Shown here piece by piece: positions 4,491 to 59,345 of a stretch of 64,000 nucleotides of DNA. The notes beneath the pieces are model-generated. The model was not told the origin of the DNA. It saw only the letters and a list, made by a program, of their open reading frames with translations, and searched no databases. This stretch comes from Malacoraja senta (Eukaryota), in NCBI GenBank assembly GCA_038087875.1, contig CM075988.1, positions 22,756,001-22,820,000 on the forward strand, given 5' to 3'. Position numbers and translations under genes: made by a program. Position 1 is the stretch's first letter. Each line of letters starts with the position of its first letter.

Positions 4491-4824
4491 TCTTACAGCA
4501 GAACCTGAAGTAAGGACTGGTTAACATTCTTTCTTCATTTTTTTCAAATTGAAGCGAACAAGGGTTCCTAAGCAAGGAACTTCAAGATCACCCTGTCCTC
4601 AGAAATAACAGTGCCCAGCATGTTACTGTCACTGAAAAGTGTGAATCATTTTCTGCCATATTTCAGCAAGAGTGAATTATCCATCATGTTTCCTGCTGAA
4701 ATCCCAAGCATCACGGAAATAGTCTCTCCCCATTTTGTTTTATCCAGATGATAACAAGAAACATTTGAGAACACTTGATAGGTTGAAGGCTGCGGGACCA
4801 GAAAACATCTGGTTGGAGTACTTA

Positions 4825-5125
4825 GTTTAGAGATACAGCGTGGAAACAAGCCCTTCAGCCCACCGAGTGCGAGCCGACCAGCAATCCACGCACACTTACA
4901 CTATCGTCCACACTCTAGGGACAATTTACAAGTTTACCAAGCCAATTAACCTACAAACCCTGTACATCTTTGGAGTGTGGTAGGAAACCGGAACACTTGG
5001 AGAAAACCCACGCAGGTCATGGGGAGAACGTACAAACTTCATACAGACAGAACCCGTAGTCGGGATCGAACCCGGATCCCTGCCACTGTAAGGCAGCAAC
5101 TCTACCGCTGCGCCACCATGCTGCA
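4825..5125 (-). mobile_element. tRNA-derived SINE (V-SINE/HE1-like) with CR1-type tail
   Basis: On the minus strand: A box ggtggcgcagcggt, B box ggttcgatccc, core gtttgtacgttctcccc and tail cttgtttccacgctgtatctctaaactaa. Confidence 0.85.
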
Positions 5126-5559
5126 CTGAAGAAGTGATTTGGAATTAGCTGCACTGGTAGTTAAACTTTTATAATGATTACAGCAAAGGCATCTACTGGC
5201 ATCTGTGGAAAATTGGCAAACATCCGTTGTTCGTAAAATGTAGGACAAATCTAATCCAACTATTGTCTGCCCAATCACTCTGCTCTAGGTTATTTGCAAA
5301 GTGATGGACAGTGCTATCAAGTGGCACATTCATCAGTGACCTACAAACTGATGCCCAATTTTGTTTTCTTTATGATATTCAGATCCAGACCTCTTCAGCT
5401 CCTTGGCCAAACTTGGACCATACACATTCACATGAATTCTAAACATGAAGTGAGAATGACATCAAGGCAGCATTTAATTGAATGTGGTATTTAGGAAACG
5501 GATAAAAAATGAAGTTAATGTGTATCAAGGACAAAATACTTTGATTAGAATCCTATCCT

Positions 5560-5696
5560 CCAGCAAGGAAAATGGTTATGTTGTTGGGGATAGTCAAACC
5601 AGGATGTTACTGCAGGAATTTCTCGGGGTAGTGATGTAGGCACAGTCATATACAGCTGCTTCCTTGCACCGTGTCAAAAGCGAGGATGTTTGTTCA
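5560..5696 (+). mobile_element. Old CR1/L2-like RT fragment that is the target site of the LTR element; continues after 8970
   Basis: tgttactgcaggaatttctcggggtagtg resembles a degenerate VT.GVPQGSVLGP, and ggatgtttgttca resembles the MFADD region. Confidence 0.45.
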
Positions 5697-6120
5697 TGTC
5701 ACGGTCTGTCCTCTCCTCATTCTCATCCACTTCACCTCCCAGTACTTTTCCACCGGTCCCTCCTTCTCCTCACCTGCCTGCCTGCCACTCCCCTCTCATC
5801 AGCCCAACTCTCCTCACCTGTTGCACTCAGTTGCCTCTGATCACCAATTAACCCGGTATATAGACTCTCCTCACCGTTCACACAGGGCCAGATTGTTCTA
5901 CGCACTCATGCAAGACTCTCCAGTGATTTCCCGACTGCCTGTACGGATTCAAACCTGCCTGCCCCTCTTCGGAACCCTCGCTCAATCCTGAGCCTCTGTG
6001 TGAGTACGGTGTACCCATTCCTGGGTTACTACTCTGTGTTACAGTATCGTAATAAAGTTCATTACTAACTATACCTGCCTGATTCTGTGCTGCTATCGGG
6101 TACAAGCTATATCCGTTACA
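5697..6120 (+). repeat. 5' LTR (424 bp)
   Basis: Starts TGTCACGG and ends CCGTTACA (imperfect inverted termini); TATATAG at 5857-5863; AATAAA at 6051-6056. Confidence 0.95.
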
Positions 6121-6137
6121 GTACAATCTGGCCCACA

Positions 6138-7123
6138 ATGGACTCGGCGCACACTACGTCTCCGTTAAACCGCTTCAAGAGGATTGAGCACATGCTCCTG
6201 CAGCACGAAGCTATGCTCACTGCCTTCCACTCCGAGGTTCGACAGGCTGTGTCAAACCAAGAACAAGCATTGGTTGCACTAGCCACCCAGGTCCAACAGC
6301 TGACGACCACCCTCGCCCAGGCTACACCCCATGCTTCGCCTCCGGCTCCGACAGCACCAGCTCCCGGTCCGCCAGGACCATCACCTGAGCCCCGGGTGGG
6401 AACCCCGGAGCGCTACGCTGGAGACCCGGAGGGCTGCAACCCATTCATCACGAACTGTTCCATTCTCTTCGCCCTACAGCCCTACACCTTCGCCCAGGAA
6501 GCGGCGAGAGTGGCGTTTACCATTAATCACCTGACTGGCAGAGCTCGGCTGTGGGGAACGGCTGAATGGGAGCGACGCACGCCGGCTTGCTCCTCTTTCC
6601 AGGCCTTCGCCGCGGAGCTTCGCAAGGTGTTCAGTGAGGTTTCGATGGTTCCGGACGCTGCGGGAAGTCTGCTGGGGTTGAGCCAGGGGAACCAGAGCGT
6701 CGCTGACTTCGCCATCGACTTTCGCACCAGGGCCCGTCAAAAGTGATTGGATCGCCCCGGCCCAGTGTGACGCTTTCTTGCTGGGCTTGAATGACTATAT
6801 CAAGGATGAGGTGGTGTCCCACGACATTCCTTCTTCTCTGGATGGGCTTATCGAGCTAACGACCCGTCTGGACCGACGCATCCTGGCGAGACGTCGGGAG
6901 AGGCGACGGGGACGGGCGGACCGCCAGCTATCCACCCAAGCTCATTTTCCTCCGGAGACTGGACTACCCTCGTTGGGGCAACCCGAACCCATGCAGGTGG
7001 GTCGCACCAGTCTCGCCCCCGAGGAACGGGATCGTCGGCATCAGGGGAACCTCTGTCTCTACTGTGGCCTGGCGGGTCATTACATCTCCAAGTGTCCAGT
7101 AAAAGGGCCAGACTCACCAGTAG
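6138..7123 (+). pseudogene. Retrotransposon gag (sushi/PEG10-type), frameshifted near 6740
   Basis: ATG at 6138; PERYAGDP..C..F, ARVAFTINHLTGRARLW and QG..SV.DF..DF motifs. An apparent extra A in caaaagtga creates a stop. The other frame resumes [19 protein letters not shown] and the zinc knuckle [14 protein letters not shown]. Confidence 0.85.
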
Positions 7124-8435
7124 CGAAGGAATTACTGGTGAGTCGAACCTCTGAACTTTCTTCTGCCCGACGCCCTCTTTGTCATGCCCGTCTGCTGTTG
7201 TCTGATGGTTCTCACACCCTCGCCACCTTCATAGACTCTGGTTGTGACAGTAATCTTATGGACAAGGAACTAGCCCGCCAGCTAGGCATCAGTTGTGTTC
7301 CCCTGCCTGAACCTGTTCCCGCCAACGCCCTCAACGGCCATCTCCTGGGGACTGTTTCTCACCAGACGGTACCAGTGCACATGCTCCTGTCTGGTAATCA
7401 CCATGAGACCATCCAGTTCCACATCCTGCAGTCTCCCCGTCTTCCCCTCATCCTGGGTTACCCCAGGCTTCGGCGACACAACCCCAACATCGACTGGAGG
7501 ACGGGGGTCATCTTGGGTTGGAGCCGTTCCTGCCACCAAGTGTGCCTGAAGCAAGCCTCGGCTCCTCAACTGGCCACCTGCTCCAGTTCCGCTCCAGATC
7601 TGACGGGGGTCCCAGCCGAGTACCATGACTTTGGGGAGGGTTTTAGCAAGTCTAGGGCCACCTCCCTTCCTCTTCATCGGCCCTATGACTGCGCCATAGA
7701 CCTCCTGCCTGGTTCCGCTCCTCCTAGGGGTCGCCTTTACTCCCTGTCCGCCCCTAAGAGAGGCAGTCTTGGAGAACCAGCCGGGACCCAAGCCAGGGCG
7801 GCTCTTCTCCGCTCCGTGGACCGTTACGCCACGGCTGCCAACCGTCACCGCACCCAGGCCCCCACCTACCTCGCGGGCCAGAAGGTGTGGCTATCGACCC
7901 GGGACCTTCCCTTGAGGGTGGAGTCCAAGAAGTTGGCACCCAAGTTCGTCGGTCCCTTTGAGATCCAGAAGGTCATCAACCCAGCGGCTGTGAGGCTCAA
8001 GTTGCCTCGTTCCGTGCGGGTCCATCCTATGTTCCACGTGTCCAGAATAAAGCCAGTCCGGGCGAGCTCCCTGGTCCCCGCAGTCCCTCCTCCTCCACCT
8101 CCTCGTCTCATCGACGGAGGCCCCGCCTTTACGGTGCACCGCCTCCTGCGCTCCCGCCGTCGCGGGAGGGGTCTCCAATACCTGGTCGATTGGGAGGGTT
8201 ACGGTCCGAGGAGAGGTCCTGGGTTCCTGCTCGACACATCCTGGACGCCTCCCTCATCAGGGAGTTTCACCGGTGTCATCCCGACCAGCCGTCCAAGTCC
8301 GCCGCTCCTAGAGGGGTCGCCGCCCCTGAGACTCTGTCCCCTCTTCCGTCTGAGGCGCCCAGTGACGACGAGACGGAGTTTTCCTCTGATGTTATGGAGG
8401 AGGATGCGGACATGGATGTCTCGGACGAATATTAG
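7110..8435 (+). pseudogene. Deleted pol: aspartic protease, pre-RT linker, integrase C-terminal GPY/F region and chromodomain
   Basis: FIDSG protease motif; [23 protein letters not shown] is joined at about 7760-7790 directly to [22 protein letters not shown] and [19 protein letters not shown] (1-bp frameshift near 8208). Confidence 0.88.
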
Positions 8436-8546
8436 CCATCCTCCGGTCCCCCTCCTCCCACCCAACTCTGCGTGGGATTGAGTTTATTTTCTTTGTTGTT
8501 TTTTTTGTTTTGGGACGTCAGGAGCTGTCCCTTGAGGGGGAGGTTA

Positions 8547-8965
8547 TGTCACGGTCTGCCCTCTCCTCATTCTCATCCACTTCACCTCCCAGTACTTTTC
8601 CACCGGTCCCTCCTTCTCCTCACCTGCCTGCCTGCCACTCCCCTCTCATCAGCCCAACTCTCCTCACCTGTTGCACTCAGTTGCCTCTGATCACCAATTA
8701 ACCCGGTATATAGACTCTCCTCACCGTTCACACAGGGCCAGATTGTTCTACGCATTCATGCAAGACTCTCCAGCGATTTCCCGACTGCCTGTACGGATTC
8801 GAACCTGCCTGCCCCTCTTCGGAACCCTCGCTCAATCCTGAGCCTCTGTGTGAGTGCGGTGTACCCATTCCTGGGTTACTACTCTGTGTTACAGTATCGT
8901 AATAAAGTTCATTACCAACTAAACCTGCCTGATTCTGTGCTGCTATCGGGTCCATATCCGTTACA
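8547..8965 (+). repeat. 3' LTR (419 bp)
   Basis: Direct repeat of 5697-6120 with about 7 substitutions and a small indel near the 3' end (counted by eye). Confidence 0.95.
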
Positions 8966-9209
8966 GTTCATGCCTATTAGTAATTCCTCTGTTAATGAAG
9001 CAATCCATATTTGCATGCAGCAAGATCTGCAGCAAAATAGGCATCAGGCTGACAGATGATGGGTAACATCTGTACCACAAAAGTTCCTGTTAGTAACCAT
9101 TTCTAACAAAAGAGGAATTAACCATCTATCCTTGCAATTCAGTAGTATCGATGTTGCTAAGTCCTACACTATCAACAATCTGCAATCATCAATGACATAT
9201 CTTAACCAG

Positions 9210-10870
9210 GGTTAGTATGGTGGCAGGAAAGAAGGGTGCTTTAAAAATCATAATAATCTTATGCAGCCTTAATCTCCATATAGCAGAGAGAAATCAAAAT
9301 TTGCAAAATAGCCTTGAGAGTGAATTCAGAATAGTTTCTTAAACCAATTATCATGAAACCAACCAGGTAATGGGTTATTTTAGATCTGTTTGTGTGTAAT
9401 GAGACGGGATTCATTGATCATCTCATAGCAAAAGATCTCTGGGAAAGAATGGTCTTAACCTGATAGAATGTCATATTCACTTTGAGAGTGAGAAACTTGG
9501 GCCTAAAAGTTGTATTTTAAATATAAACGTGTTTGGAAAGGTTTGAAAGCAGAGTTGGCTAAGGTTGAGTATGAAAATGGATTTAAAGGCAAGACAATAA
9601 ATAAGAAGGGACAGGCATTTAAGGAGATATGTCATTATTAACAACAAAGATATATGCCAGTGAGAAATAAGGACTTTTCGAAGAATGATCTCTCTAAGGA
9701 ATTAAAAATGGCATTGTTGAAAGAAAAGGCATATAATGTAGCAAAATATAGTAAAACACTAGGATAGGGAAATCTTAAGAATGAATAAAAGACGACTAAA
9801 GAAAGTAAAGAGGAGAAAATAATTATGAGTAAGCTAGCAATAAATATGGAAATGCTAAGGTGTATGTTGGTTCATTAGAGGAATAGACAAGGGAATTAAT
9901 AATGAGAAATAATGAAATGGCAGAGACTGAATAATTAGAGGCTAAAAGCATGCTAATGATAGTAGAAGATCAAGTGGGAGAAAAGGGAGATGCTTAAAGC
10001 TATCATAATCTACAGGGAAAGGTAATAGATAAACAAATGGGACTAAAGTCAGGTTGTCATTGAGTGCATTGGTTGCAAACTTCCAAAATTCTCGGTCCCA
10101 GTGGATTGGAATACCATAAATGTAACATTGCTATTCAAGAAAGGAAGGAGCAGAAAGCAAGAAACTTATAGACCAGTTAGCCTGAAGTCTATCTTTAGAG
10201 TAATGCTGCAATACAAATAATAACAGGACATTTTGGAAATCATAACCGTCAAGCATAGTCAACATGATGTTATTGAAGGGAAATAATGTTTGAGGATATT
10301 GTTTAATTTGTGAGAGACAGTAAAATAAGCTGAACAGGGAAAATGTAGTATTTTTGTGCATGAAGCCTGATGTGGCCTGCTGATGTTGCAAGTATTAAAA
10401 AAAGGTATGGAATATAAAAGTTGTGAAGTCTTGCGGCAGACATACATGGCATGGATGAGATCATATCTGGAATACTGCATGGATACTACATGGAGATTTA
10501 AGGAAGGATATAATTGGACTGGAAGTAGTTTAAAAGAGGTTAACTAGTTAGATTCCTGGGATGTAGATGACAAACAAGCAAAAGTTGAATAGGTAGGGCC
10601 TGTACTTTTGAAGAGTGAGAGGTAATCTTATTGAAACAGACAAGACATGGGAAGGTTGCTTAGTAGATGGGTTATATTTAAAAAATAAGGTCATACTCGT
10701 TTAGCACAGAAATTAGGAGGAATTTCTTCCCTCAGTGACTCTGGATTCACTACCCCGGAGAGTTGTGGAGGTGGAATCAATTAATATCTTTAAAGTTGAG
10801 ACAGACAGATTTTTGGTTAATAGAAAAGTCAAGGAGTATGGGGGAACAAAGGACTGAGCCCACAAACAGA
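9210..10870 (+). mobile_element. Old, highly degenerate CR1-like LINE ORF2 remnant
   Basis: Degenerate parallels to the CR1 at 46560-49797 (ttatagaccagttagcctg resembles YRPVSL; gaggtaatcttattgaaac resembles RGDLIE). Confidence 0.7.
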
Positions 10871-28261: not shown

Positions 28262-31065
28262 GGATAGACACAAGGAACTGCAAATGCTGATTTAGACAAC
28301 TTTTCTGGAGCACATGGATAGGCAATATTTTGGGTCTGGACCCTTCTTCAGACTGATTGAAGTAGTGGGAGAGGAAGTTGGAGAGAGATGGGGCAGGACA
28401 AAGTTTGGCAAGTGATCGGCGGATACAGGTGAGGGGACGGGGTGTTGGATTGGCAGATGATGGGCAAATGCCAGAGATGAAAAGGCAAAAAGTGTGAGAT
28501 GGGAGACAAGGATAGAAGATGTGCAAAATGTGAAGCCAGAGGAAGGAATATAGGTGGCGGTTGGGGGAAAGGGAGAAATGGGTGCAAATTGAATTGAATT
28601 GAATAAATGTTATTAGCAAAGTATATGTATACATTCAATTCAATTCAATTCAATTCAATTCCTTTATTGTCATCTTGCAAGCAACAGTTGTGCAGTGCAA
28701 AATGAAAAGACGTTTCCCAGGGAATACCGGAGCATCGCACATGACGTTTAAAACATTTCACACATAATAATAATAATAACAACACTAAAACAATCCAGTC
28801 CCTGATGGAACAGTATAAGTTAAAATAGATACAAACAACGTTAAAATACAGTAAGACCAATCATAAACATGTCCAGGGTGGCTGATTTGAGTGGCCAGTG
28901 CCAGTTATTGAAGTGGCCAGTGCCAGTTATTATAGTGTCCGTGCCAAGCCGCAGAATCAGGTGACTGTGAGTACAGAGTGGCTGTTTAGCAGCCTCACAG
29001 CATATGGCAGGAAGCTGTTTAGCAGTCTTGTAGTCCGGGCTTTGATGCTGCGATATCTCTTGCCTGATGGCAGGAGATCCAGGTGTATGTGGAGGGGGTG
29101 CATTTTGTCCTTGGCAATTATTGGGGCTTTTTTCCAACAGCGGCTCAGGAACAGTTCTTGTACCGAGGGTAGGGAGACGCCAATGATCTTCTCTGCTCCC
29201 CTCACTACCCTCTGCAGAGCCTTCCTGTCCGAGCAGTTGCAGGTTGAGTACCACGTATTTAAACAGTACGTGAGTACAGACTCCACCGTACCCCTGTAGA
29301 AAGTCCTGAGGATGTTGGTGGGGAGTGAGGCCTGTTTTAGTTTCCTCAGGAAGTGCAGTCGCTGATGGGCCCTTTTGACGGTCCCAGTGGTGTTTCTGGA
29401 CCAGGTGAGGCTGTCCGTAATTTGCACCCCGAGGAACTTTATGCTCTCCACTCTCTCCACTGTGGCGCCACTGATGTTAAGGGGTGCATGCTTTGGCTGC
29501 GCCCTCCTGAAGTCGACAACCATCTCCTTTGTTTTTTCCACATTTAGTTCTAGATTATTTTTGCCGCACCAGTCCACTAGTTGTTTTACTTCCTCCCTGT
29601 ACATTGATTCATCATCTCCGCTGATGAGTCCCACCACTGTTGTGTCATCCGCGAATTTTATGATCATATTGTCCTTGAATCTGGCCGCACAGTCATGTGT
29701 GAGCAATGTGAACAACAGCGGGCTGAGCACACAGCCTTGAGGGGAGCTCAGCGTGATCGAGCCTGAAGTGTTCTTGTCCACACGGACTGACTGCGGTCTC
29801 TCTGTCAGAAAGTCCAAGATCCAGTGACACAGGGTGGTGTTGAGGCCCCAGCAGGGTTAGTTTCTCCACAAGTCTCTGTGGGATGATGGTGTTGAACGCA
29901 GAGCTGAAGTCAATGTACAGGATTCTAGCGTATGTGTTACTTTTTTCCAGATGTGTGAGCACTGTGTGCAGCGTGGTAGAGATGGTGTCCTCTGTAGAAC
30001 GGTTGGGGCGATAGGCAAACTGGAGGGGGGTCTAACGATGAGGGGAGGCTGGCAGTAATGTGGGGTTTCACCAGGCGTTCAAAAACACTTCATTATTATT
30101 GGGGTCAGGGCGACAGGGCGGTAATCGTTTAGCGAGGCCACAACTGGTTCTTCGATATTGGGATTATTGTACTCGTTTTGAGGCATGTGGGGACAATGGC
30201 TTGACTGAGGGAGATGTTATAGATGTCCGTTAGCACATATGCTAACTCCTCAGCACATTCCTTAAGCACACGTCCTGGGATGTTATCGGGTCCGACTGCT
30301 TTCCACGGGTTGACCTTAGACAGGATTCTCCGTGTGTCCATAGGGTCTATGGTCAGGACTGGCTGGTCGGTTTGTATGCAGGGACTGGCTCTCCCCTTGG
30401 GTGTGGTGTTTGCTGCATCAAAACGAGCGAAGAAAATTACATACAAGCAATTTGCCCTGATGATTTGCTCGCAAGTAACAACACAATATACAGTAGACAA
30501 TTAAAAATAAAACATTATAATTTAAATGTGAAGAATGAAATAAAATTCCCGAGCAAAATGAGACTACAGAGTTTTGGCAGTTGAGTAGAGCTACTGCTCG
30601 TGGAAAAAAAGCTGTTTTTATGTCTGGCTGTGGCGGCTTTGACAGTCCGGAGTCGCCTCCCAGAGGGAAGTGCTTCAAAATGTTTGTGGCCAGGGTGAGA
30701 GGTGTCAGAGATGATCTTACCCGCCCGCTTCCTGGCCCTTGCAGTGTATGCTTCGTTGATGGGGGGGGAAGGTTACAGCCAACCTTCCAGGTGGGGGCTC
30801 TGGTAAAGGGGGCAGGGATGGAAAATGTGTAGGATTTGTGGGTTAGTTACGTAAATTTATGGAATTCAATGTTCATAATGTTGGATTGTAAGCTACCCAA
30901 GTGCTGTTCCTCTAGTTTGCATGTGGTCTCACTCTGGCTATGGAGGCGGCCAAGGACAGAAAGGTCATAATGGGAAGGGGAGTTAAAATGGTTGGCAACC
31001 CAGAGATCCAGCAAGCTTTGGTGAACCGTGTGTAAATGTTTGGTGAAACGGTCGCCTTGTCTATG
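28262..31065 (-). mobile_element. Penelope-like fragment (28262-28586 plus about 30795-31065) hosting two nested Rex1-like LINEs
   Basis: HFNSPSH.DLSVLG..KLEEQHLGSLQ..MNIEF in ORF 30847-31155; the UTR and terminus lie at 28262-28586. Confidence 0.8.
28635..30437 (-). mobile_element. Rex1/Babar-like LINE RT fragment with (TTGAA)n tail
   Basis: [56 protein letters not shown] and [10 protein letters not shown]; several frameshifts; possible TSD TACAT at 28630-28634 and 30438-30442. Confidence 0.9.
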
Positions 31066-39035: not shown

Positions 39036-39860
39036 TCATTTGAACTTTTAGGAAAATTCATATTTTTCAGAGCCTTGAACAAAAGCATATGAACATGAAA
39101 GAATATTGATTAAAAGTCCATTTGACTGGAAAAAGTTCTTGAAGCTCTGCTTGCAGTGGTAAAGTGTTAGCCAATTTTAGCGAGTGTTGTCTTGAGCAAG
39201 GGAACAGATAGTAATACCTTAGTGCAGTGAACTGTATCACTGGCTTGATTGAATGGAATTACGTGCACATAAACAAAGTAGAAGTTGAAGTCAGTTATTC
39301 CATCAATTATTGGGGAAGAAAAAAAAGCATTTCTGTTGTAGAGTGTGTGAATCAGTCAGTGTTTCTTGCAATCCTTCAATGCTTGTTGAATGATTTTGTG
39401 ATGTGCTGTCAAATTCTTGAATGTTTGAAGATTGTTAGTTACTCAGACTGTTGATATACTTCGATCTGCTGAGAGTGACCAGTATATATTTCCAGAGAAA
39501 GAGGCCAAGAGAGTAAATGGCTTTTATTTGCTAATAAAACAAGCCAGGTGTTACATTCTGGCTTTTCTGGAAAATGATTGATTTGTTTTAGAGCACAAAG
39601 GCTACTTTCATAAGCACGCAGACTCTTTTAAACTGAGATCAACATATTTATATATGGCCCCGAGTAGAAAATATTGATGTGGGACTGATAAGTATTTGTT
39701 CATTGCAATATATCCCAATGAAGATCACGTTCATCTGTCTATTGCAAGAGATTTTAAATATCATGCAAGAAGACCATTTCCATTTCAGGCAAAAATAAAC
39801 AGATTTATTTAAAATTAGATTTGTGCACAGAGACAAATAATTTAATAACTAGTCACTGGT

Positions 39861-40977
39861 TAACACAATCATCCCCTCCAAGCTGGTTACCAAACTCGCA
39901 GAACTGGGTCTCTGCGCATCCCTCTGCAATTGGATCCTCGACTTCCTCACTCTCAGACCACAGTCTGTTCGTATTGGTGGAAATGTGTCAGACTCGATAA
40001 CAATTAGCACGGGAGCACCTCAAGGCTGCATGCTCAGTCCCCTGCTGTACTCACTCTATACTCATGACTGCGTAGCCGGACATAGTGCAAACTCCATCAT
40101 CAAGTTCGCTGATGACACCACTGTTGTGGGACGTATCACTGATGGGGATGAGTCAGAGTATAGAAGAGAGATCGAGCAACTGTCCATATGGTGCCAGCAC
40201 AACAACCTGGCCCTCAACACCAGCAAAACCAAGGAACTGATTGTGGACTTTGGAAGGAGTAGGATGGGGACCCACAGTCCCGTTTATATCAACGGGTCGA
40301 TGGTTGAAAGGGTCAAGAGCTTCAAATTCCTGGGCGTGCACATCTCTGAAGATCTTTCCTGGTCCGAGAACAATGATGCCATTATTAAGAAAGCACATCA
40401 GCGCCTCTACTTCCTGAGAAGATTACGGAGAGTCGGTTTGTCAAGGAGGACTCTCTCTAACTTCTACAGGTGCACAGTAGAGAGCATGCTGACCGGTTGC
40501 ATCGTGGCTTGGTTCGGCAACTTGAGTGCACTGGAGAGGAAAAGACTATAAAAATTAGTAAACACTGCCCAGTCCATCATCGGCTCTGACGTCCCTTCCG
40601 TCGAGGGGATCTACCACAGTCGCTGCCTCAAAAAGGCTGGCAGCATCATCAAGGACCCACACCATCCTGGCCACACACTCATCTCCCTACTACCTTCAGG
40701 TAGAAGGTACAGGAGCCTGAAGACTGCAACGACCAGGTTCAGGAACAGCTACTTCCCCACAGCCATCAGGCTATTAAACCTGGCTCGGACATAACACTGA
40801 ACTTTACTAGCCAATACTGTTATTTGCACTTTATCAGTATATTGACCATTGTGTATATATTTATAGAATGCCTTGTAGTAAATGCCTACTATGTTCTGTT
40901 GTGCTCAAGCAAAGCAAGAATTTCATTGTCCTACCAGGGACACATGACAATAAACTCACTTGACTTGACTTGACTTG
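39861..40977 (+). mobile_element. Young 5'-truncated Rex1/Babar-like LINE with (ACTTG)n tail
   Basis: [32 protein letters not shown] and [13 protein letters not shown]; one premature stop at 40549-40551. The empty-site version of the flank is visible at 33604-33625. Confidence 0.92.
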
Positions 40978-46144: not shown

Positions 46145-46559
46145 GCAAAACGTTATTTTGATTATAATTCTTGTGTGGGTTGAATAAAATTAATCTAGTG
46201 AAATCTACATTTTCTTAAATGTATCCAATTTTTCCATTGTCTTGTGCTCTGTTTTCATTGCATTGTCCAATTCTGGTCAGATTAAATATAAAAAAATTGT
46301 TTAAAGTGCATTTAGAATAAAAGCTGCTCTTACATTTAGAATGAAAGCAGATTATTTCAAAAAGATTATGTTATTACGTCAAGAGCATACCTTTTTCCAA
46401 AAACACTGTATAATACAATATAGAATAATACCATCTGACATGTCATCATCCCCACTCAATGCGCCAAACAATTCAGTTCATTCACATACAGTATTTTAAT
46501 GTCACTAATGTTTTATCCTTAAACAATGGATAAAACATTAGTGACCCTTAAATTTACCC

Positions 46560-49500
46560 TTAAACTGGGGAGACTTTAAAGTAGAATGGTTGGGGGGAGG
46601 GACTCAAATAGTGAATGCTATTAGACAGTGTGTGAGGCAGGAGGCAGAGAAGGAAAGCACTCAGACCCAACATGTAGAGGAGAAAGAAGAAAACAATAAT
46701 AAACAGAGAATAAGAGGTGGTGGGGTTCTTAAATGGGTGAGCAGAGAAACAGAGGGGTGTAAAATGTGGGCGGAAGCAATAGGTAGCAAGGTGAAAAGTA
46801 AAAGTGGCAGGCAGACAAATCCAGGGCAAAAATCAAAAAGGGCCACTTTTCAACATAATTGTATAAGGGGTAAGAGCGTTGTAAAAACAAGCCTGAAGGC
46901 TTTGTGTCTCAATGCAAGGAGCATTCGTAATAAGGTGGATGAGTTGAATGTGCAGATAGCAATTAATGATTATGATATAGTTGGGATCACGGAGACATGG
47001 CTCCAGGGTGACCAAGGCTGGGAGCTGAACATCCAGGGATATTCAATATTCAGGAGGGATAGAGAGAAAGGAAAAGGAGGTGGGGTAGCGTTGCTGGTTA
47101 GAGAGGAGATTAACGCAGTGGAAAGGAAGGACATTAGCTTGGAGGATGTGGAATCGGTATGGGTAGAGCTGTGAAACACTAAGGGGCAGAAAACGCTGGT
47201 GGGTGTTGTGTACAGGCCACCTAGCAGTAGTAGTGAAGTTGGGGATGGCATCAAACAGGAAATTAGAAATGCGTGCAACAAAGGCAAAACAGTTATAATG
47301 GGTGACTTCAATCTACATATAGATTGGGTGAATCAAATTGGCAGGGGTGCTGAGGAAGAGGATTTCTTGGAATGTATGCGGGATAGTTATCTAAACCAAC
47401 ATGTAGAGGAACCAACGAGAGAGCAGACTATTCTAGACTGGGTATTGAGTGATGAGGAAGGGTTAGTTAGCAGTCTTGTTGTGCGTGCCCCCTTGGGCAA
47501 GAGTGACCATAATATTGTTGAGTTCTTCATTAGGATGGAGAGTGACATTGTTAATTCAGAAACAACGGTTCTGAACTTAAAGAAAGGTAACTTTGAGGGT
47601 ATGAGACGTGAATTGGCCAAGATTGACTGGCAATTAGTTCTAAAAGGGTTGACGGTGGATATGCAATGGAAGGCATTTAAAGACTGCATGGATGAACTAC
47701 AAAAATTGTTCATCCCAGTTTGGCAAAAGAATAAATCAGGGAAGGTAGTGCATCCGTGGATAACAAGGGAAATCAGGGATAGTATCAAAGCAAAAGATGA
47801 TGCGTACAAATTAGCCAGAAAAAGCAGCATACCAGAGGACTGGGAGAAATTCAGAGACGAGCAGAGGAGGACAAAGGGCTTAATTAGGAAAGGGAAAATA
47901 GATTATGAAAGGAAACTGGCAGGGAACATAAAAACTGACTGCAAAAGTTTTTATAGATATGTGAAGAGAAAGAGATTAGTTAAAACAAATGTAGGTCCCT
48001 TGCAGTCAGAAACAGGTGAATTGATCATGGGGAACAAGGATATGGCGGACCAATTGAATAACTACTTTGGTTCCGTCTTCACTAAGGAAGACATAAATAA
48101 TCTGCCGGAAATAGCAGGGGGCCGTGGGTCAAAGGAGATGGAGGAACTGAGTTAAATCCAGGTTAGTCGGGAAGTGGTGTTGGGTAAATTGAATGGATTG
48201 AAGGCCGATAAATCACCAGGGCCAGATAGGCTGCATCCCAGAGTACTTAAGGAAGTAGCTCCAGAAATAGTGGATGCATTAGTGATAATTTTTCAAAAGT
48301 CTTTAGATTCTGGAGTAGTTCCTGAGGATTGGAGGGTAGCAAACGTAATCCCACTTTTTAAGAAGGGAGGGAGAGAGAAAATGGAGAATTACAGACCAGT
48401 TAGTCTAACATCGGTAGTGGGGAAACTGCTAGAGTCAGTTATTAAAGATGGGATAGCAGCACATTTGGAAAAGTGGTGAAATCATTGGACAAAGTCAGCA
48501 TGGATTTACGAAAGGTAAATCGTGTCTGACGAATCTTATAGAATTTTTTTAGGATGTAACGAGTAGAGTGGATAGGGGAGAACCAGTGGATGTGTTGTAT
48601 CTAGACTTTCAGAAGGCTTTCGACAAGGTATCACATAAGATTAGGATGCAAACTTAAATCACACGGTATTGGCGGTTCAGTATTGATGTGGATAGAGAAC
48701 TGGCTGGTAAACAGGAAGCAAAGAGTAGGAGTAAACGGGTCCTTTTCACAATGGCAGGCAGTGACTAGTGGGGTACCGCAAGGCTCAGTGCTGGGACCCC
48801 AGCTATTTACAATTTATATTAATGAACTGGATGAGGGAATTGAAAGCAACATCTCCAAGTTTGCGGATGACACTAAGCTGGGGGGCAGTGTTAGCTGTGA
48901 GGAGGATGCTAGGAGACTGCAAGGTGACTTGGATAGGCTGGGTGAGTGGGCAAATGTTTGGCAGATGCAGTATAATGTGGATAAATGTGAGGTTATCCAC
49001 TTTGGTGGCAAAAACGGGAAGGCAGACTATTATCTAAATGGTGGCCGATTAGGAAATGGGGAGATGCAGCGAGACCTGGGTGTCATGGTACACCAGTATT
49101 TGAAAGTAGGCATGCAGGTGCAGCAGGCAGTGAAGAAAGCGAATGGTATGTTGGCCTTCATAGCAAGAGGATTTGAGTATAGGAGCAGGGAGGTTCTACT
49201 GCAGTTGTACAGGGTCTTGGTGAGACCACTCCTGGAGTATTGCGTACAGTTTTGGTCTCCAAATCTGAGGAAGGACATTATAGCCATAGAGGGAGTGCAG
49301 AGAAGGTTCACCAGACTGATTCCTGGGATGTCAGGACTTTCATATGAAGAAAGACTGGATAGACTTGGCTTATACTCGCTAGAATTTAGGAGATTGAGAG
49401 GGGATCTTATAGAAACGTACAAAATTCTTATGGGGTTGGACAGGCTAGATGCAGGAAGATTGTTCCCGATGTTGGGGAAGTCCAGGACAAGGGGTCACAG

Positions 49501-49797
49501 CTTAAGGATAAGGGGGAAATCCTTTAAGACCGAGATGAGGAAAAACTTTTTCACACAGAGAGTGGTGAATTTCTGGAATTCTCTGCCACAGAGGGTAGTT
49601 GAGGCCAGTTCATTGGCTATATTTAAGAGGGAGTTAGATGTGGCCCTTGTGGCTAAGGGGATCAGGGGGTATGGAGAGAAGGCAGGTACGGGATACTGAG
49701 TTGGATGATCAGCCATGATCATATTGAATGGCGGTGCAGGCTCGAAGAGCCGAATGGCCTACTCCTGCACCTATTTTCTATGTATCTATGTATCTAA
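46560..49797 (+). mobile_element. CR1-clade LINE with near-complete but disrupted ORF2 (AP endonuclease and RT) and 3' UTR
   Basis: AP endonuclease motifs CLNARSI, GITETWL, VVYRPP, MGDFN and SDHN; RT motifs KSPGPD, YRPVSLTS, SGVPQGSVLGP and KFADDTKL. Stops at 47172 and 48153, with further lesions near 48470-48660; tail (tatgtatc)n. Confidence 0.95.
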
Positions 49798-54764: not shown

Positions 54765-55752
54765 ATGATGGATGAATGAATACTTTATTGTCATTATAAC
54801 ATGTAAACATGTACAACGAAATTAGAAATGCTAACCAGTCAGTGCACCATTCATACATTTTCTAAGAGCAAAAGTCTAAGATAAACAACTAAAATAAATA
54901 ACATGAAAAAAACAAACACATTCTTCTGTCGATTTCACAGTCCCTTTGGTGTGTAGCACACCTGCACACATTTGGTGGCTACATTAAGTGTAGTTATTGC
55001 TGTGGGATAAAAACTGTTTTGAGTCTGTTTGTCCTTGTCCTCATTGATCTGTACCGTCTGCCTGACGGCAGCAGTTCAAACAGGGAGTGACCGGGGTGAA
55101 AAATGTCCTTTATGATCTTCTGGGATTTTTTGAGACAGTGGGAACTGTGTAGGTCCTCCAAGGTGAGGAGAGGGCAGCCGATAATCTTCTGGGCGTTGTC
55201 AATAGCCCTCTGGAGCGCTTTCCTCTTAGCCGCTATGCAGCTGGTGTACCACACGCATACACAGTATGTTAAGATGCTCTCTATTGAGCACCGATAAAAG
55301 GATAGCAGCAGTCTCTGGGTGATGTTGTTCTTCCTGAGCACCCTCAGGAAGTACAGTCTCTGCTGGACCTTTTTCAGCAGCGCAGAGGTGTTCACGCTCC
55401 AAGTCAGGTCCTCCTCAATGTGGATTCCCAGGAAGCGGAAATCCGCCACCCTCTCCACACAGTCCCCATCGATGATTAGTGGTGTAATGTCCGTTTTCTT
55501 CTTTCTGTAGTCTATTATGAGCTCCTTGGTCTTTGAGGTGTTGAGGAGCAGGTTATTTTCTCCACACCACCCTGTCAGCTGCTCCACCTCATCCCTGTAG
55601 GCGTACTCATCCCCCCCAGAGATGAGCCCCACCACCGTGGTGTCATCCGCGAATTTGACGGTGTTACTGTGGTGGGCGGGGGTGCAGTCATATGTGTAGA
55701 TGGTGTAAAGCAGGGGGCTCAGCACGCAGCCCTGTGGAGAGCCGGTACTGGG
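54765..55752 (-). mobile_element. Rex1/Babar-like LINE 3' fragment (different subfamily)
   Basis: ORF 54994-55725: [31 protein letters not shown] and LLPSGRRYRS; (CATT/CATC)n tail. Confidence 0.9.
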
Positions 55753-56689
55753 CTGTTATTTATCTTTCACAATCATTTGATTTTACTGTGTGAATATCCT
55801 GGTTCTAAGATGTTTGCATTTAATCTCATCTTTGATCAGAAGCAGCTAATGCAATAACATTGATACGTTATGTTTTGTGTGATTCTGAGGTACCAAATAT
55901 CTACAGTTCAAAGTTCTTATTCTTTTGCTTCTCATCATTCTACTTAATATTCCTTTCCTGCTTTTGCTAACCCACATCTGAAGGAATAGTTTCACACTTA
56001 AAGGAATTAGTGATCAAGCAGAACTTTTTCCATTCAGCTTTCTATCCTCACTTTAGCTGTTTTGACTTTCTGTAAACAAAGGCTTGTTTCTTGTTCATTT
56101 AAGAATTATTTTGTTGATAGTGAAAATGATTCCACTCTCACAAAATTATGTTATTAGATACATGGATGCATGGTAAATACTCCATCATTCCTTTAGTGGT
56201 ACCTTTACAGTATTTTTTGAAAAAGCCTCACATAGACAAGAATTATGAACATACATTCTGTGGCAATTATTTTGTGCTGTGAATTGTTTCCTTTGAGCTG
56301 GAAGCTTGCATAATGGATAAACCCTGCTATTTAGGGCAGGCAACAAAGCAGGTCTTTATTATTGTGAATAGGATATTACCAAATCTCACATACTATGCAT
56401 GCTATCCCTCACATTTGGCATTACGCCCTCTGACAGGGTAATATCCGTGGTTCTGGTTGGCTTAAAGGAGTTTCAGAAACATTTTAGCATTCTATCCTAC
56501 GTGATCTCTTCGGAGTATAAATCTTTTGATCCTTTGGAGTTGTTTACTCTCTTGATGAATACACCATCATTATCTTAAAAAAATACTTTTCAATTCATTA
56601 TTTTTCTCTTTTGAGATTAACGTCAGCTGACAATGAAGCGAAAATTATATATTTTTGTTATTATTAACCTCATGGGTAAAAGGTCATCC

Positions 56690-59345
56690 ATTATGCCAGT
56701 ACCCAAGAAGAGTCTTTGCCTCAATGACTACTGACCAATTGTACCCGCATCCATTGTGATGATGTGCTTCAAGAGTTTGGTTTTCACACAAATCAACACT
56801 TGCCTCAGTATTCATTTGCCTACCGCCACAACAGATTGACGATTCGCTGGCTTTCACTCTGCACTGGACCACTTGGACATCTGCAATATATATGTCAGGC
56901 TGTTGGTCATGTACAGCATTCAACACCATCATCACTTCTAAAGTCATCATCGGAATCAGGGAACTGGGTACACATTAGTACACATTGGAAACATCACCTT
57001 TTTGCTGACCATCAACGCAGGGGCACCTCAGGGCTATGTGCTCAGCTCATTGCTCTACTCCCTCTCTATACCCATAACTGTAGCCAGAACCAGCTCCAAT
57101 GCCATCTTTAATTTTGTCAATGATACCATTGTCATTGGATGAATAATTGGTAACAACAAATCAGAGTACCGAAGCGAAATCAACAATCTGGTTAACTGGT
57201 GCCAGAACAACAATCTTGCTCTCAATGTTAGCAAGACAAAGGAATTAATGCTTACTTCAGAAAGGGAAAGATGTCTTCATTGCAAGGACAGTGATGGAGA
57301 ATGTCAAAGGCTTCAAGTTCCTAAAACCATATAACCATATAACCATAACAGCACGGAAACAGGCCATCTCGGCCCTTCAAGTCCGTGCCGAACATTTTTT
57401 TAATTTTTTTTTTTAAATTAAAAATAAATACTTCCCCCTAGTCCCATCTACCTGCACTCAGACCATAACACTCCATTCCTTTCCCGTCCATATACCCATC
57501 CAATCTATTTTTAAAGGATAACATCGAACCTGCCTCCACCACTTCCACTGGAAGCTCATTCCACACAGCTACCACTCTCTGAGTAAAGAAGTTCCCCCTA
57601 ATGTTCCCCCTAAACTTCTGTCCCTTAATTCTCAAGTCATGTCCCCTTGTTTGAATCTTCCCTACTCTCAATGGGAAAAGCTTATCTACGTCCACTCTGT
57701 CTAACCCGCTCATAATTTTAAAGACCTCTATCAAGTCCCCTCTTAACCTTCTGCGCTCCAAAGAATAAAGACCTAACTTGTTCAACCTTTCTCTGTAACT
57801 TAGTTGCTGAAATCCAGGCAACATTCTAGTAAATCTCCTCTGTACTCTCTCTATTTTGTTGACATCCTTCCTATAATTAGGCGACCAAAATTGTACTCCA
57901 TACTCCAGAATTGGCCTCACCAATGCCTTGTACAATTTTAACATTACATCCCAACTTCTATATTCAATGCTCTGATTTATTAAGGCCAACACACCAAAAG
58001 CTTTCTTTACCACCCTATCTACATGAGATTCCACCTTCAGGGAACTATGCACAGTTATTCCTAGATCCCTCTGTTCAACTGCATTCCTCAATTCGCTACC
58101 ATTTACCGTGTACGTCCTATTTTGATTTGTCCTGCCGAGATGTAGCACCTCACATTTGTCAGAATTAAACTCCATCTGCCATCTTTCAGCCCACTCTTCC
58201 AAATGGCCTAAATCTCTCTGTAGACTTTGTAAATCTACTTCATTATCCACAACACCACCTATCTTAGTATCATCTGCATACTTACTAATCCAATTTTCCA
58301 CACCATCATCCAGATCATTGATGTACATGACAAACAACAGTGGACCCAACACAGACCCCTGAGGCACCCCACTAGTCACCGGCCTCCAACCTGACAAACA
58401 GCCATCCACCATTACTCTCTGGCATCTCCCATTCAGCCACTGTTGAATCCATCTTGCTACTCCACCATTAATACCCAACAGTTGAATCTTCTTAACCAAC
58501 CTTCCATGAGGAACCTTGTCAAAGGCCTTACTGAAGTCCATATAGACAACATCCACTGCTTTACCCTCATCAATTTCCCTAGTAACCTCTTCGAAAAATT
58601 CAAGAAGATTAGTCAAGCATGACCTTCCAGGCACAAATCCATGTTGACTGTTCCTAATCAGACCCTGCTTATCCAGATGCTTATATATATTATCTTTAAG
58701 TATCCTTTCCATTAATTTGCCCACCACTGACGTCAAACTAACAGGTCTATAATTGCTAGGTTTACTCTTCGAACCCTTTTTAAACAACGGAACAACATGC
58801 GCAGTACGCCAATCCTCCGGCACTATTCCCGTTTCTAATGACATTTGAAATATTTCTGTCATAGCCTCTGCTATTTCTACACTAAAGTACTCAACTCCAA
58901 AGATCTGATATTGATGCAATGACAAGAAAGCTCACAAATGCTTCTACATCCTCAAGTAGATAACTAATGTCATTAAAGACATGCCACCCTGCCCGTGCTC
59001 TCTTCTTGTACCTACCATCCAGAAGAAGATGCAGGAGCCTGAGCACTGTTAACTGCAAAAATAGCTTTTCATCAACCGTCAGGTTTTTGAAAAACTCTGT
59101 ACAATGCTAACCACAGCCCTACCTCAACCACCGCTAGTCTGGTGAACTACTACAGACTTTGCATTACTATGATTGCTCTACATACTTTAGTTTTTGCACT
59201 GATGTGGCCTACTTTACTTGGAATAATTAATAGCGTATTGTTTGTTTATTGTTTTGTTGTGGCGTTTAATGAGCCTGCAAAGCTGCAGCAAATGAGAACT
59301 ACTTTGTTCCGGTTCATGTGCATGGGATAAATAAACATTCTTGAC
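56690..59345 (+). mobile_element. Old Rex1/Babar-like LINE remnant interrupted by a CR1 (57326-58881)
   Basis: gggcacctcagggctatgtgctcagc resembles GAPQG.VLS; ttcaagttcct (FKFL) is cut by the insertion and resumes at aagaaagctcacaaatgc (KKAHQ-like). Confidence 0.7.
57326..58881 (-). mobile_element. Young 5'-truncated CR1-like LINE with an uninterrupted RT-domain frame
   Basis: ORF 57438-58925: YRPVSLTS, SQHGF, DFSKAFDKV, SGVPQGSVLGP and KYADD; tail (ATATGGTT)n; possible CTAAA TSD at 57321-57325 and 58882-58886. Confidence 0.93.

What the first reader, a model, noticed from the sequence alone, without database searches (positions are those of the whole stretch)
5857..6134. Tf1-style self-priming signature in a vertebrate LTR retrotransposon
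Seen: the primer-binding position just after the 5' LTR (ACAATCTGGCCC, 6123-6134) is not the usual TGG-starting tRNA complement. It is the exact 12-nt reverse complement of GGGCCAGATTGT (5885-5896), which starts about 28 nt downstream of the LTR TATA box (5857-5863), where transcription should begin. The same 12-mer is kept in the 3' LTR. Established: S. pombe Tf1 primes reverse transcription with the first 11 or so bases of its own RNA, and this has been proposed for the Tf1/sushi group. Inference: this elasmobranch family primes without a tRNA.
Basis: partly seen in the sequence, partly recalled or inferred. Interest (0 to 1): 0.7.

Follow-up and report, generated by a model that had tools for sequence, protein, structure and literature searches.

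The report
Self-priming signal in a ray retrotransposon
A broken jumping gene in a skate or ray genome carries a primer site that matches the front of its own RNA instead of a host tRNA, a trick already described for its group (Tf1/sushi), so this is an ordinary new member rather than a new mechanism.

Summary
6123-6134 is the exact reverse complement of 5885-5896, 28 nt after the TATA box, 2 nt behind the 5' LTR end; 0 of 20,000 shuffled LTRs reach 12 nt. The element is a 3.3-kb Ty3/gypsy chromovirus (Gag akin to PEG10) that has lost RT, RNase H and the integrase core. Two corrections: the family-level match is probably 10 nt (5887-5896), since 391 of 401 RNA reads from two other organisms differ at 5886; and this copy cannot cut its own primer. 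Support for self-priming: one intact relative shows a matched change in primer and PBS (two decayed relatives pair worse); no human tRNA holds the 10-mer; a second U5-leader helix gives Tf1's crossed 'pretzel' shape. Not shown: the start site (no pile-up in 3'-biased RNA) and cleavage. Self-priming is already described in print for vertebrate Tf1/sushi elements, so this is a new member of a known kind. The scan noted self-priming candidates before, in Copia and BEL elements of other genomes, none like this sequence. Side lead: its Gag nests among bony-fish elements, a hint of horizontal transfer.

The parts
5692..5696 (+). left target-site duplication GTTCA
   Evidence: identical to 8966-8970
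5697..6120 (+). 5' LTR, 424 nt, TG...CA
   Evidence: 411 of 419 aligned bases identical to the 3' LTR plus one 5-nt gap; loose ends of reads at 5697 and 6120
5857..5862 (+). TATA box
   Evidence: only TATA[AT]A match in the LTR; aligned TATA in L002, L011, L012
5885..5896 (+). candidate self-primer at the start of R; conserved core 5887-5896
   Evidence: 12 of 12 complementary to the PBS here; position 5886 differs in other family copies; core aligned in three relatives
6051..6070 (+). AATAAA (6051-6056) and poly(A) site near 6070, i.e. the R/U5 border
   Evidence: motif; 23 reads of run X22 carry an A-tail from about 6071
6086..6103 (+). U5 arm of the U5-leader helix
   Evidence: pairs with 6140-6153 in 9 aligned sequences, 94.4% of cells paired
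6123..6134 (+). primer-binding site, 2 nt behind the LTR end, not TGG-type
6140..6153 (+). leader arm of the U5-leader helix, overlapping the first gag codons
6138..7110 (+). gag (ATG 6138), frame broken near 6740, CCHC knuckle at 7054-7095
   Evidence: Pfam Retrotrans_gag and DUF4939; PEG10 is the only PDB hit of the Gag profile; translations
7111..7144 (+). 12-bp hairpin at the gag/pol junction, likely frameshift stimulator
   Evidence: fold -24.2 kcal/mol for 55 nt; like hairpins in L006 and L014 and behind the gag stop of L001-L003
7213..7476 (+). aspartic protease
   Evidence: PF13975, E 3e-4, below the curated cut-off; 65% identity to L002 Pol over residues 27-263
7760..7790 (+). junction of an internal deletion of about 2.1 kb that removes RT, RNase H and the integrase core
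   Evidence: L002 Pol residues 27-263 and 963-1110 map side by side here; the missing part holds RVT_1, RNase H, H2C2 and rve
7876..8315 (+). integrase C-terminal SH3 domain and chromodomain, frame broken near 8207
   Evidence: PF24626 E 1.5e-17, PF00385 E 9.6e-4; tblastn to L002 Pol in two frames
8534..8543 (+). polypurine tract
   Evidence: sequence
8547..8965 (+). 3' LTR, 419 nt, with the 12-mer at 8735-8746
8966..8970 (+). right target-site duplication GTTCA

Best explanation
The element is an internally deleted copy of a vertebrate Tf1/sushi-group (V-clade) chromovirus, and the complement is that group's self-priming signal. Model: (1) RNA polymerase II starts about 27-30 nt after the TATA box, at 5884-5887 (inferred). 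(2) The first 10-12 nt fold onto the PBS 2 nt behind the LTR end (complement shown; folding predicted). (3) U5 pairs with the leader and first gag codons, crossing the primer helix, as in Tf1's 'pretzel' (predicted, conserved in relatives). (4) RNase H of RT cuts just after 5896 and frees a 3'-OH (inferred from Tf1; not tested). (5) RT extends it through the 2-nt spacer into U5 and R, giving minus-strand strong-stop DNA (inferred). This copy has no RT or RNase H, so it either got the signal from an intact parent and is now inert, or was copied with enzymes of an intact relative.
For: Exact complement far beyond chance. Primer helix pair probability 0.83-1.0 when the RNA starts at 5885 and 0.64-0.78 at 5887; z -2.56. 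Core sits 28-30 nt after TATA in 4 of 4 sequences showing both sites, over loops of 226-647 nt. L002, with an open 1,173-aa Pol, pairs 10 of 10 with one change on both sides, while the cross pairs window/L002 give 9 of 10. The PBS starts 2 nt after the LTR end and not with TGG in 9 of 9 relatives that show it, and its 10-nt core takes 5 different forms among the 10 sequences, which a fixed host primer would not favour. 0 hits of the 10-mer in a human tRNA file with 261 named entries plus mitochondrial tRNAs. U5-leader helix: 94.4% of 126 cells paired against at most 48.4% when slid; RNAalifold finds it unaided. Group features: chromodomain, PEG10-like Gag, CCHC, -1 gag/pol overlap in relatives. 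Literature states self-priming and the pretzel for this group (PMC10085805, PMC6317226, PMC4600332, PMC7175516; passages).
Against: Start site not mapped: no start pile-up near 5885 in three RNA runs. If the RNA starts at 5870 the primer helix falls to probability 0.05. Only 1 of 3 relatives with both sites pairs fully; L011 has 7 Watson-Crick + 1 G-U and L012 6 + 2 of 10. In L002 the helix probability is only 0.26-0.50 and it is not in the minimum-energy fold. Covariation of the U5-leader helix does not beat the shuffle control (24, 101 and 70 of 500) and one arm is coding. The third pretzel duplex was not established. The host's own tRNA set was not available.
Confidence: 0.85

Rival explanations
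1. The helix forms but is not the primer: transcription starts further upstream, and the R/PBS pairing serves folding, packaging or translation control, while priming uses something else.
For: No start site mapped; the core is conserved enough that the window's primer also pairs 10 of 10 with the PBS of L005 and L008, so conservation alone does not show function as primer.
Against: The primer's 3' end faces the base 2 nt behind the LTR end in 4 of 4 cases, the place a minus-strand primer must end; fixed distance to TATA; a 5' extension to 5870 destroys the helix in prediction; no other primer site is visible.
Confidence: 0.08
2. A host tRNA, half-tRNA or other small RNA primes in trans, and the LTR match is a by-product.
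For: An 8-nt match (CAGATTGT) lies in the anticodon arm of human mitochondrial tRNA-His; the PBS core is fairly conserved; the host tRNA set was not searched.
Against: No TGG start; 0 hits for the 10-mer and for three other 8-mers in the human file; the PBS varies among relatives and in L002 the LTR follows the change; one 8-mer in a tRNA set is within chance (inference) and a mitochondrial tRNA is an unlikely primer.
Confidence: 0.05
3. The match is chance.
For: 2 of 3,029 flanking 20-mers reach 12 nt somewhere in the LTR; the outer two pairs may indeed be incidental.
Against: 0 of 20,000 shuffles; same position and partner in relatives that are saturated at about half of their fourfold-degenerate sites.
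Confidence: 0.01

Closest known systems
Vertebrate Tf1/sushi group = V-clade chromoviruses (sushi-ichi, Amn-ichi); Butler et al. 2001, seen only as cited in PMC10085805, PMC6317226 and PMC4600332
   Same: Ty3/gypsy with chromodomain, PEG10-like CCHC Gag, -1 gag/pol junction with hairpin, PBS complementary to the R start, extra U5-leader helix.
   Different: Host is a ray or skate rather than a bony vertebrate (PMC2774666 passages list fish, amphibians and amniotes); this copy has lost RT, RNase H and the integrase core.
Tf1/Tf2 of Schizosaccharomyces pombe and Tj1 of S. japonicus
   Same: First bases of the RNA pair with the PBS (11 nt in Tf1, cut by RNase H between bases 11 and 12; PMC7175516 passage); three-duplex pretzel (PMC10085805 passage).
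   Different: Tf1 is shown by experiment, has a single ORF and no CCHC; here the core is about 10 nt, only two of three duplexes are supported, and nothing is shown by experiment.
PEG10/RTL1 (SIRH, sushi-ichi-derived mammalian genes)
   Same: Gag homology: PEG10 7lga is the only PDB hit, E 1.7e-16; hits named PEG10, RTL1, LDOC1-like.
   Different: Those are host genes without LTRs or primer site; this is a recent insertion with LTRs 98% alike and a target duplication.

Membership tests
Tf1/sushi group (V-clade chromovirus) | Ty3/gypsy order PR-RT-RNase H-IN | tested here: met
   Met in 3 of 3 relatives scanned; the window keeps PR and the IN C-terminus in that order, 65-75% identical to L002, with the middle deleted
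Tf1/sushi group (V-clade chromovirus) | chromodomain at the integrase C-terminus | tested here: met
   PF00385 below cut-off in the window because of a frame break; above cut-off in 3 of 3 relatives; 75% identity to the L002 segment
Tf1/sushi group (V-clade chromovirus) | Gag related to sushi-derived PEG10/RTL1, with CCHC | tested here: met
Tf1/sushi group (V-clade chromovirus) | Gag-Pol made by -1 frameshift | tested here: met
   pol lies in the -1 frame with a hairpin at the gag stop in 3 of 3 relatives checked; the window copy keeps the hairpin but its junction is altered
Tf1/sushi group (V-clade chromovirus) | PBS complementary to the element's own R start, not to a tRNA 3' end | tested here: met
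   human tRNAs stood in for the host's
Tf1/sushi group (V-clade chromovirus) | three-duplex pretzel around the PBS | tested here: inconclusive
   central duplex and U5-leader duplex supported, covariation not above shuffles; third duplex not established
Tf1/sushi group (V-clade chromovirus) | RT-IN phylogeny with sushi-ichi and Tf1 | not tested
   the window has no RT; sushi-ichi itself was not among the named hits, so no tree with it was built
Tf1-type self-priming mechanism | primer is the very 5' end of the RNA | tested here: inconclusive
   TATA spacing fits; no start pile-up in three RNA runs that are 3'-biased and were read to 1-6%
Tf1-type self-priming mechanism | RNase H cuts the RNA to free the primer | not testable with these tools
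   needs biochemistry; this copy encodes no RNase H
tRNA-primed LTR elements | PBS starts with TGG and matches a tRNA 3' end or half-tRNA | tested here: not met
   PBS starts with ACA; 0 hits of the 10-mer in the human tRNA file

The most novel reading that the evidence does not exclude
A self-priming sushi lineage crossed from bony fish into skates and rays, is still transcribed there, and gave rise to a short RT-less subfamily (this 3.3-kb form) whose self-primer is cut and extended in trans by an intact helper. That would give a living vertebrate system in which tRNA-free priming, so far only inferred outside fission yeast in the papers seen, and its use in trans can be observed directly.
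Probability: 0.12. Interest if true: 0.5.

Novelty: new member of a known kind. Interest (0 to 1): 0.22.

Why it matters
Modest. It extends the Tf1/sushi self-priming signature to a cartilaginous fish and adds a matched primer/PBS change and a conserved U5-leader helix as comparative support. In the papers found vertebrate self-priming is inferred, not tested; the library lacks most subscription papers, Butler 2001 among them. The family is transcribed and polyadenylated in related animals, so cap mapping and small-RNA sequencing could test the mechanism in a vertebrate. An element that needs no tRNA would also escape silencing by 3' tRNA fragments (inference from the PMC7472051 abstract).

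Tried and rejected
No whole genome is held, so no copy survey and no host tRNA search. Viral contigs gave 0 relatives in 4 of 4 scans. Genome contigs gave 0 loci with the Gag alignment and 4 with RT: L016 is an RT fragment; L017-L019 are distant (49-51%), nested, and with crude LTR borders gave best complements of only 6-8 nt, so they were left out as uninformative. Of 15 metagenome loci, 4 had no DNA upstream of gag, 2 had unrelated DNA there, 6 had a PBS but no R start (contig end or truncated LTR), and 3 had both. L001 is identical to L002 over the PBS region and was left out of alignment A3. In one search the L012 primer was read one base off; corrected. ViennaRNA gives the U5-leader helix probability 0 in the window because it crosses the primer helix, which the program cannot model. 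Rfam: 0 matches in 4500-9500. ARAGORN's one hit, 5053-5121, is a SINE head and unrelated. tRNA sets: the zebrafish supplement of PMC11417395 was too large to read; PMC11574265 (one file not searched) and PMC13338051 held no tRNA sequences by a control motif; PMC13748594 held E. coli constructs only. The human FASTA wraps at 60 letters, so matches across a line end would be missed. The first 7 nt of human tRNA-Arg-ACG equal the first 7 of the 12-mer: rejected, since a 5' end cannot prime and those bases are not conserved in the family. The TGG inside the PBS (6129-6131) was rejected as a tRNA site: 0 hits for its 7-nt complement and absent in L001, L002, L010 and L012. Whether other copies share the deletion could not be read: no joint or loose end at 7760-7790 among the rows shown, 166 loose-end rows hidden. 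Whether the family PBS mirrors the change at 5886 could not be read either (130 rows hidden, low depth). Butler 2001 and Esnault and Levin 2015 are not held. Earlier scan notes: none like this sequence.

Full report
1. Observation. ACAATCTGGCCC (6123-6134) is the exact reverse complement of GGGCCAGATTGT (5885-5896), which recurs only at 8735 in the 3' LTR; TATATA starts at 5857. The element runs from 5697 to 8965: LTRs of 424 and 419 nt, TG...CA ends, 411 of 419 aligned bases identical plus one 5-nt gap, a GTTCA target duplication, and a polypurine tract at 8534-8543. The PBS starts 2 nt behind the LTR end. Chance is low: 0 of 20,000 dinucleotide-shuffled LTRs and 2 of 3,029 flanking 20-mers give a 12-nt complement anywhere in the LTR.

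2. What the element is. Gag starts at 6138, 3 nt after the PBS, matches Retrotrans_gag and DUF4939, carries a CCHC knuckle, and its profile hits only PEG10 in the PDB (E 1.7e-16). Among the 120 listed Gag relatives, named ones are bony-fish proteins, some called PEG10, RTL1 or LDOC1-like. Downstream are a protease, an integrase C-terminal SH3 domain and a chromodomain. Residues 27-263 and 963-1110 of the 1,173-aa Pol of relative L002 map side by side at about 7760-7790; the missing 700 residues hold RT, RNase H and the integrase core. The copy also has frame anomalies near 6740, 7105 and 8207, where reads of other family copies differ from it; these may be decay or assembly errors. A 12-bp hairpin at 7111-7144 has counterparts at the gag stop of relatives whose pol lies in the -1 frame. 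The host is probably a skate or ray: a flanking LINE protein has its highest named identities in Leucoraja (89%), Mobula (83%) and Hypanus (74%), against 43-54% in birds and turtles.

3. Is the complement conserved? Of 15 related metagenome loci, 9 show the LTR end and PBS. In all 9 the PBS starts 2 nt after the terminal CA and none starts with TGG; the 10-nt core has 5 forms among these and the window. Three loci also keep the R start, 28-30 nt after TATA, as in the window. L002, whose Gag and Pol are open, pairs 10 of 10 with one position changed on both sides relative to the window (A-U to C-G); swapping partners between the two gives 9 of 10. L011 and L012, more decayed (Gag about 52% identical and broken), pair 7+1 and 6+2 of 10 (Watson-Crick + G-U). 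So the matched change rests on one locus. Reads from two other organisms show that 5886 is T in nearly all family copies (100 of 101, 48 of 49, 243 of 251 reads; all 17 contigs), while no fixed difference in 5887-5896 is among the 40 rows shown (130 hidden). The family duplex is thus probably about 10 nt and the 12-nt match partly particular to this copy; the family's PBS bases at 6133-6134 could not be read.

4. tRNA alternative. Mature tRNAs end in CCA, so their PBS starts with TGG (established knowledge); this one does not. In a human tRNA FASTA (supplement file 5 of PMC13023127; 261 named entries plus mitochondrial tRNAs; text search only) the 10-mer and three of four 8-mers have 0 hits; CAGATTGT occurs once, in mitochondrial tRNA-His. 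The host's own tRNAs could not be searched.

5. RNA structure. With a 5' end at 5885 the primer helix is in the minimum-energy fold (z -2.56; pair probabilities 0.83-1.0); at 5887 0.64-0.78; at 5870 only 0.05; in L002 0.26-0.50. A second helix joins U5 (6086-6103) to the leader and first gag codons (6140-6153): 94.4% of 126 cells pair across 9 sequences, against 17-48% when slid, and two pairs change on both sides; RNAalifold finds the same helix. It does not beat the shuffle control (24, 101 and 70 of 500), and one arm is coding. It crosses the primer helix, which is the shape of the Tf1 pretzel as described in PMC10085805 (passages). The window's 5' LTR has one private mismatch in this helix at 6102. 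The third pretzel duplex was not established.

6. Transcription. In stranded poly(A) run X21 sense reads rise toward the 3' end (265 against 14 in the last bin) and 78 reads run from the polypurine tract into the LTR at the main joint; 23 reads of run X22 carry an A-tail from about 6071, 14 nt after AATAAA. This sets R at about 5885-6070 and U5 at about 6071-6120 for the family. No start pile-up is listed near 5885, and depth on the 5' leader is under 4, so the start site is unmapped. Only 1-6% of each RNA run was read.

7. Mechanism. Most likely (0.85): the RNA starts at 5884-5887, its first 10-12 bases pair with the PBS, RNase H cuts after 5896, and RT extends the freed end into U5. Shown: complement, its position, its conservation, one matched change, the poly(A) site in relatives. 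Predicted: the folds. Inferred from Tf1: start site, cut, extension. This copy would need a helper's RT. Rivals: a structural helix with another primer (0.08), a host RNA primer (0.05), chance (0.01).

8. What is known. PMC10085805 (passages) calls self-priming a common feature of the Tf1/sushi group and credits the pretzel name to Butler et al. 2001. PMC6317226 (passages) says self-primers were described in the group from yeast and vertebrates. PMC4600332 (passages) says the mechanism is implicated from fungi to vertebrates. PMC7175516 (passages) gives the Tf1 details. PMC2774666 (passages) defines the V-clade in fish, amphibians and amniotes. PMC3601003 (passages) notes AATAAA close to the LTR end in Sushi LTRs, as here. 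Butler 2001 itself was not held. Searches for a cartilaginous-fish case listed nothing on point; I saw listings only. It works like Tf1, and it meets the group features I could test; the RT tree with sushi-ichi was not done.

9. Side lead. The Gag sits inside a 38-row clade (SH-aLRT 99, quick tree, 77 rows, N-terminal part only) whose named members are Takifugu, Merluccius and Gouania, with other bony-fish elements outside. It differs from L002 at 123 of 234 fourfold-degenerate sites (0.53), no more than L002 differs from L003 (0.56), and its CpG ratio is 0.72 against 0.39 in the flanks. This hints at transfer from bony fish, but no shark or ray row was in the tree and most rows are unnamed.

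10. Verdict. Real, well placed, and most likely Tf1-type self-priming, but an expected trait of a known group in a defective copy. New member of a known kind; interest 0.22.

Noticed in passing
window 7760-7790: The deletion joins the start of RT to the integrase C-terminus in one open frame, leaving a protease-SH3-chromodomain product; unknown whether other copies share it.
   Followed up: partly
window 6138-6737: Gag of this ray element nests among bony-fish elements and no cartilaginous fish is named among 120 listed relatives; possible horizontal transfer.
   Followed up: partly
window 5697-6120 against 6135-8540: LTR depth in run X18 is about 5 to 50 times the internal depth, with varied flanks at both LTR ends, which suggests many solo LTRs; depth is no copy number.
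   Followed up: no
window 5954-5966: Reads of organism A leave the reference here on both sides with consistent other sequence: a subfamily with a longer R region. Primer-to-PBS loops range from 226 to 647 nt among relatives.
   Followed up: no
window 7105-7112 and 7875-7886: Partial copies of the primer word (9 and 10 of 12) lie at the gag/pol junction and in the integrase tail; the second is coding and also present in L003. Probably incidental.
   Followed up: no
window 4825-5121, minus strand: tRNA-headed SINE-like repeat called tRNA-Cys by ARAGORN; its tail belongs to a 5-copy family in the first 30 kb.
   Followed up: partly
window 28960-29856, 39853-40548, 46545-49696, 54997-55755, 57441-58931: Several LINE remnants with RT or endonuclease domains.
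   Followed up: no
L017-L019: Eukaryotic gypsy elements with LTRs lie on contigs of bacterial MAGs in the genome collection, probably contamination.
   Followed up: no
L004:2200-2743 and L010:2650-3246: 5' LTRs that lack their U3 and R start and abut host-gene-like sequence.
   Followed up: no
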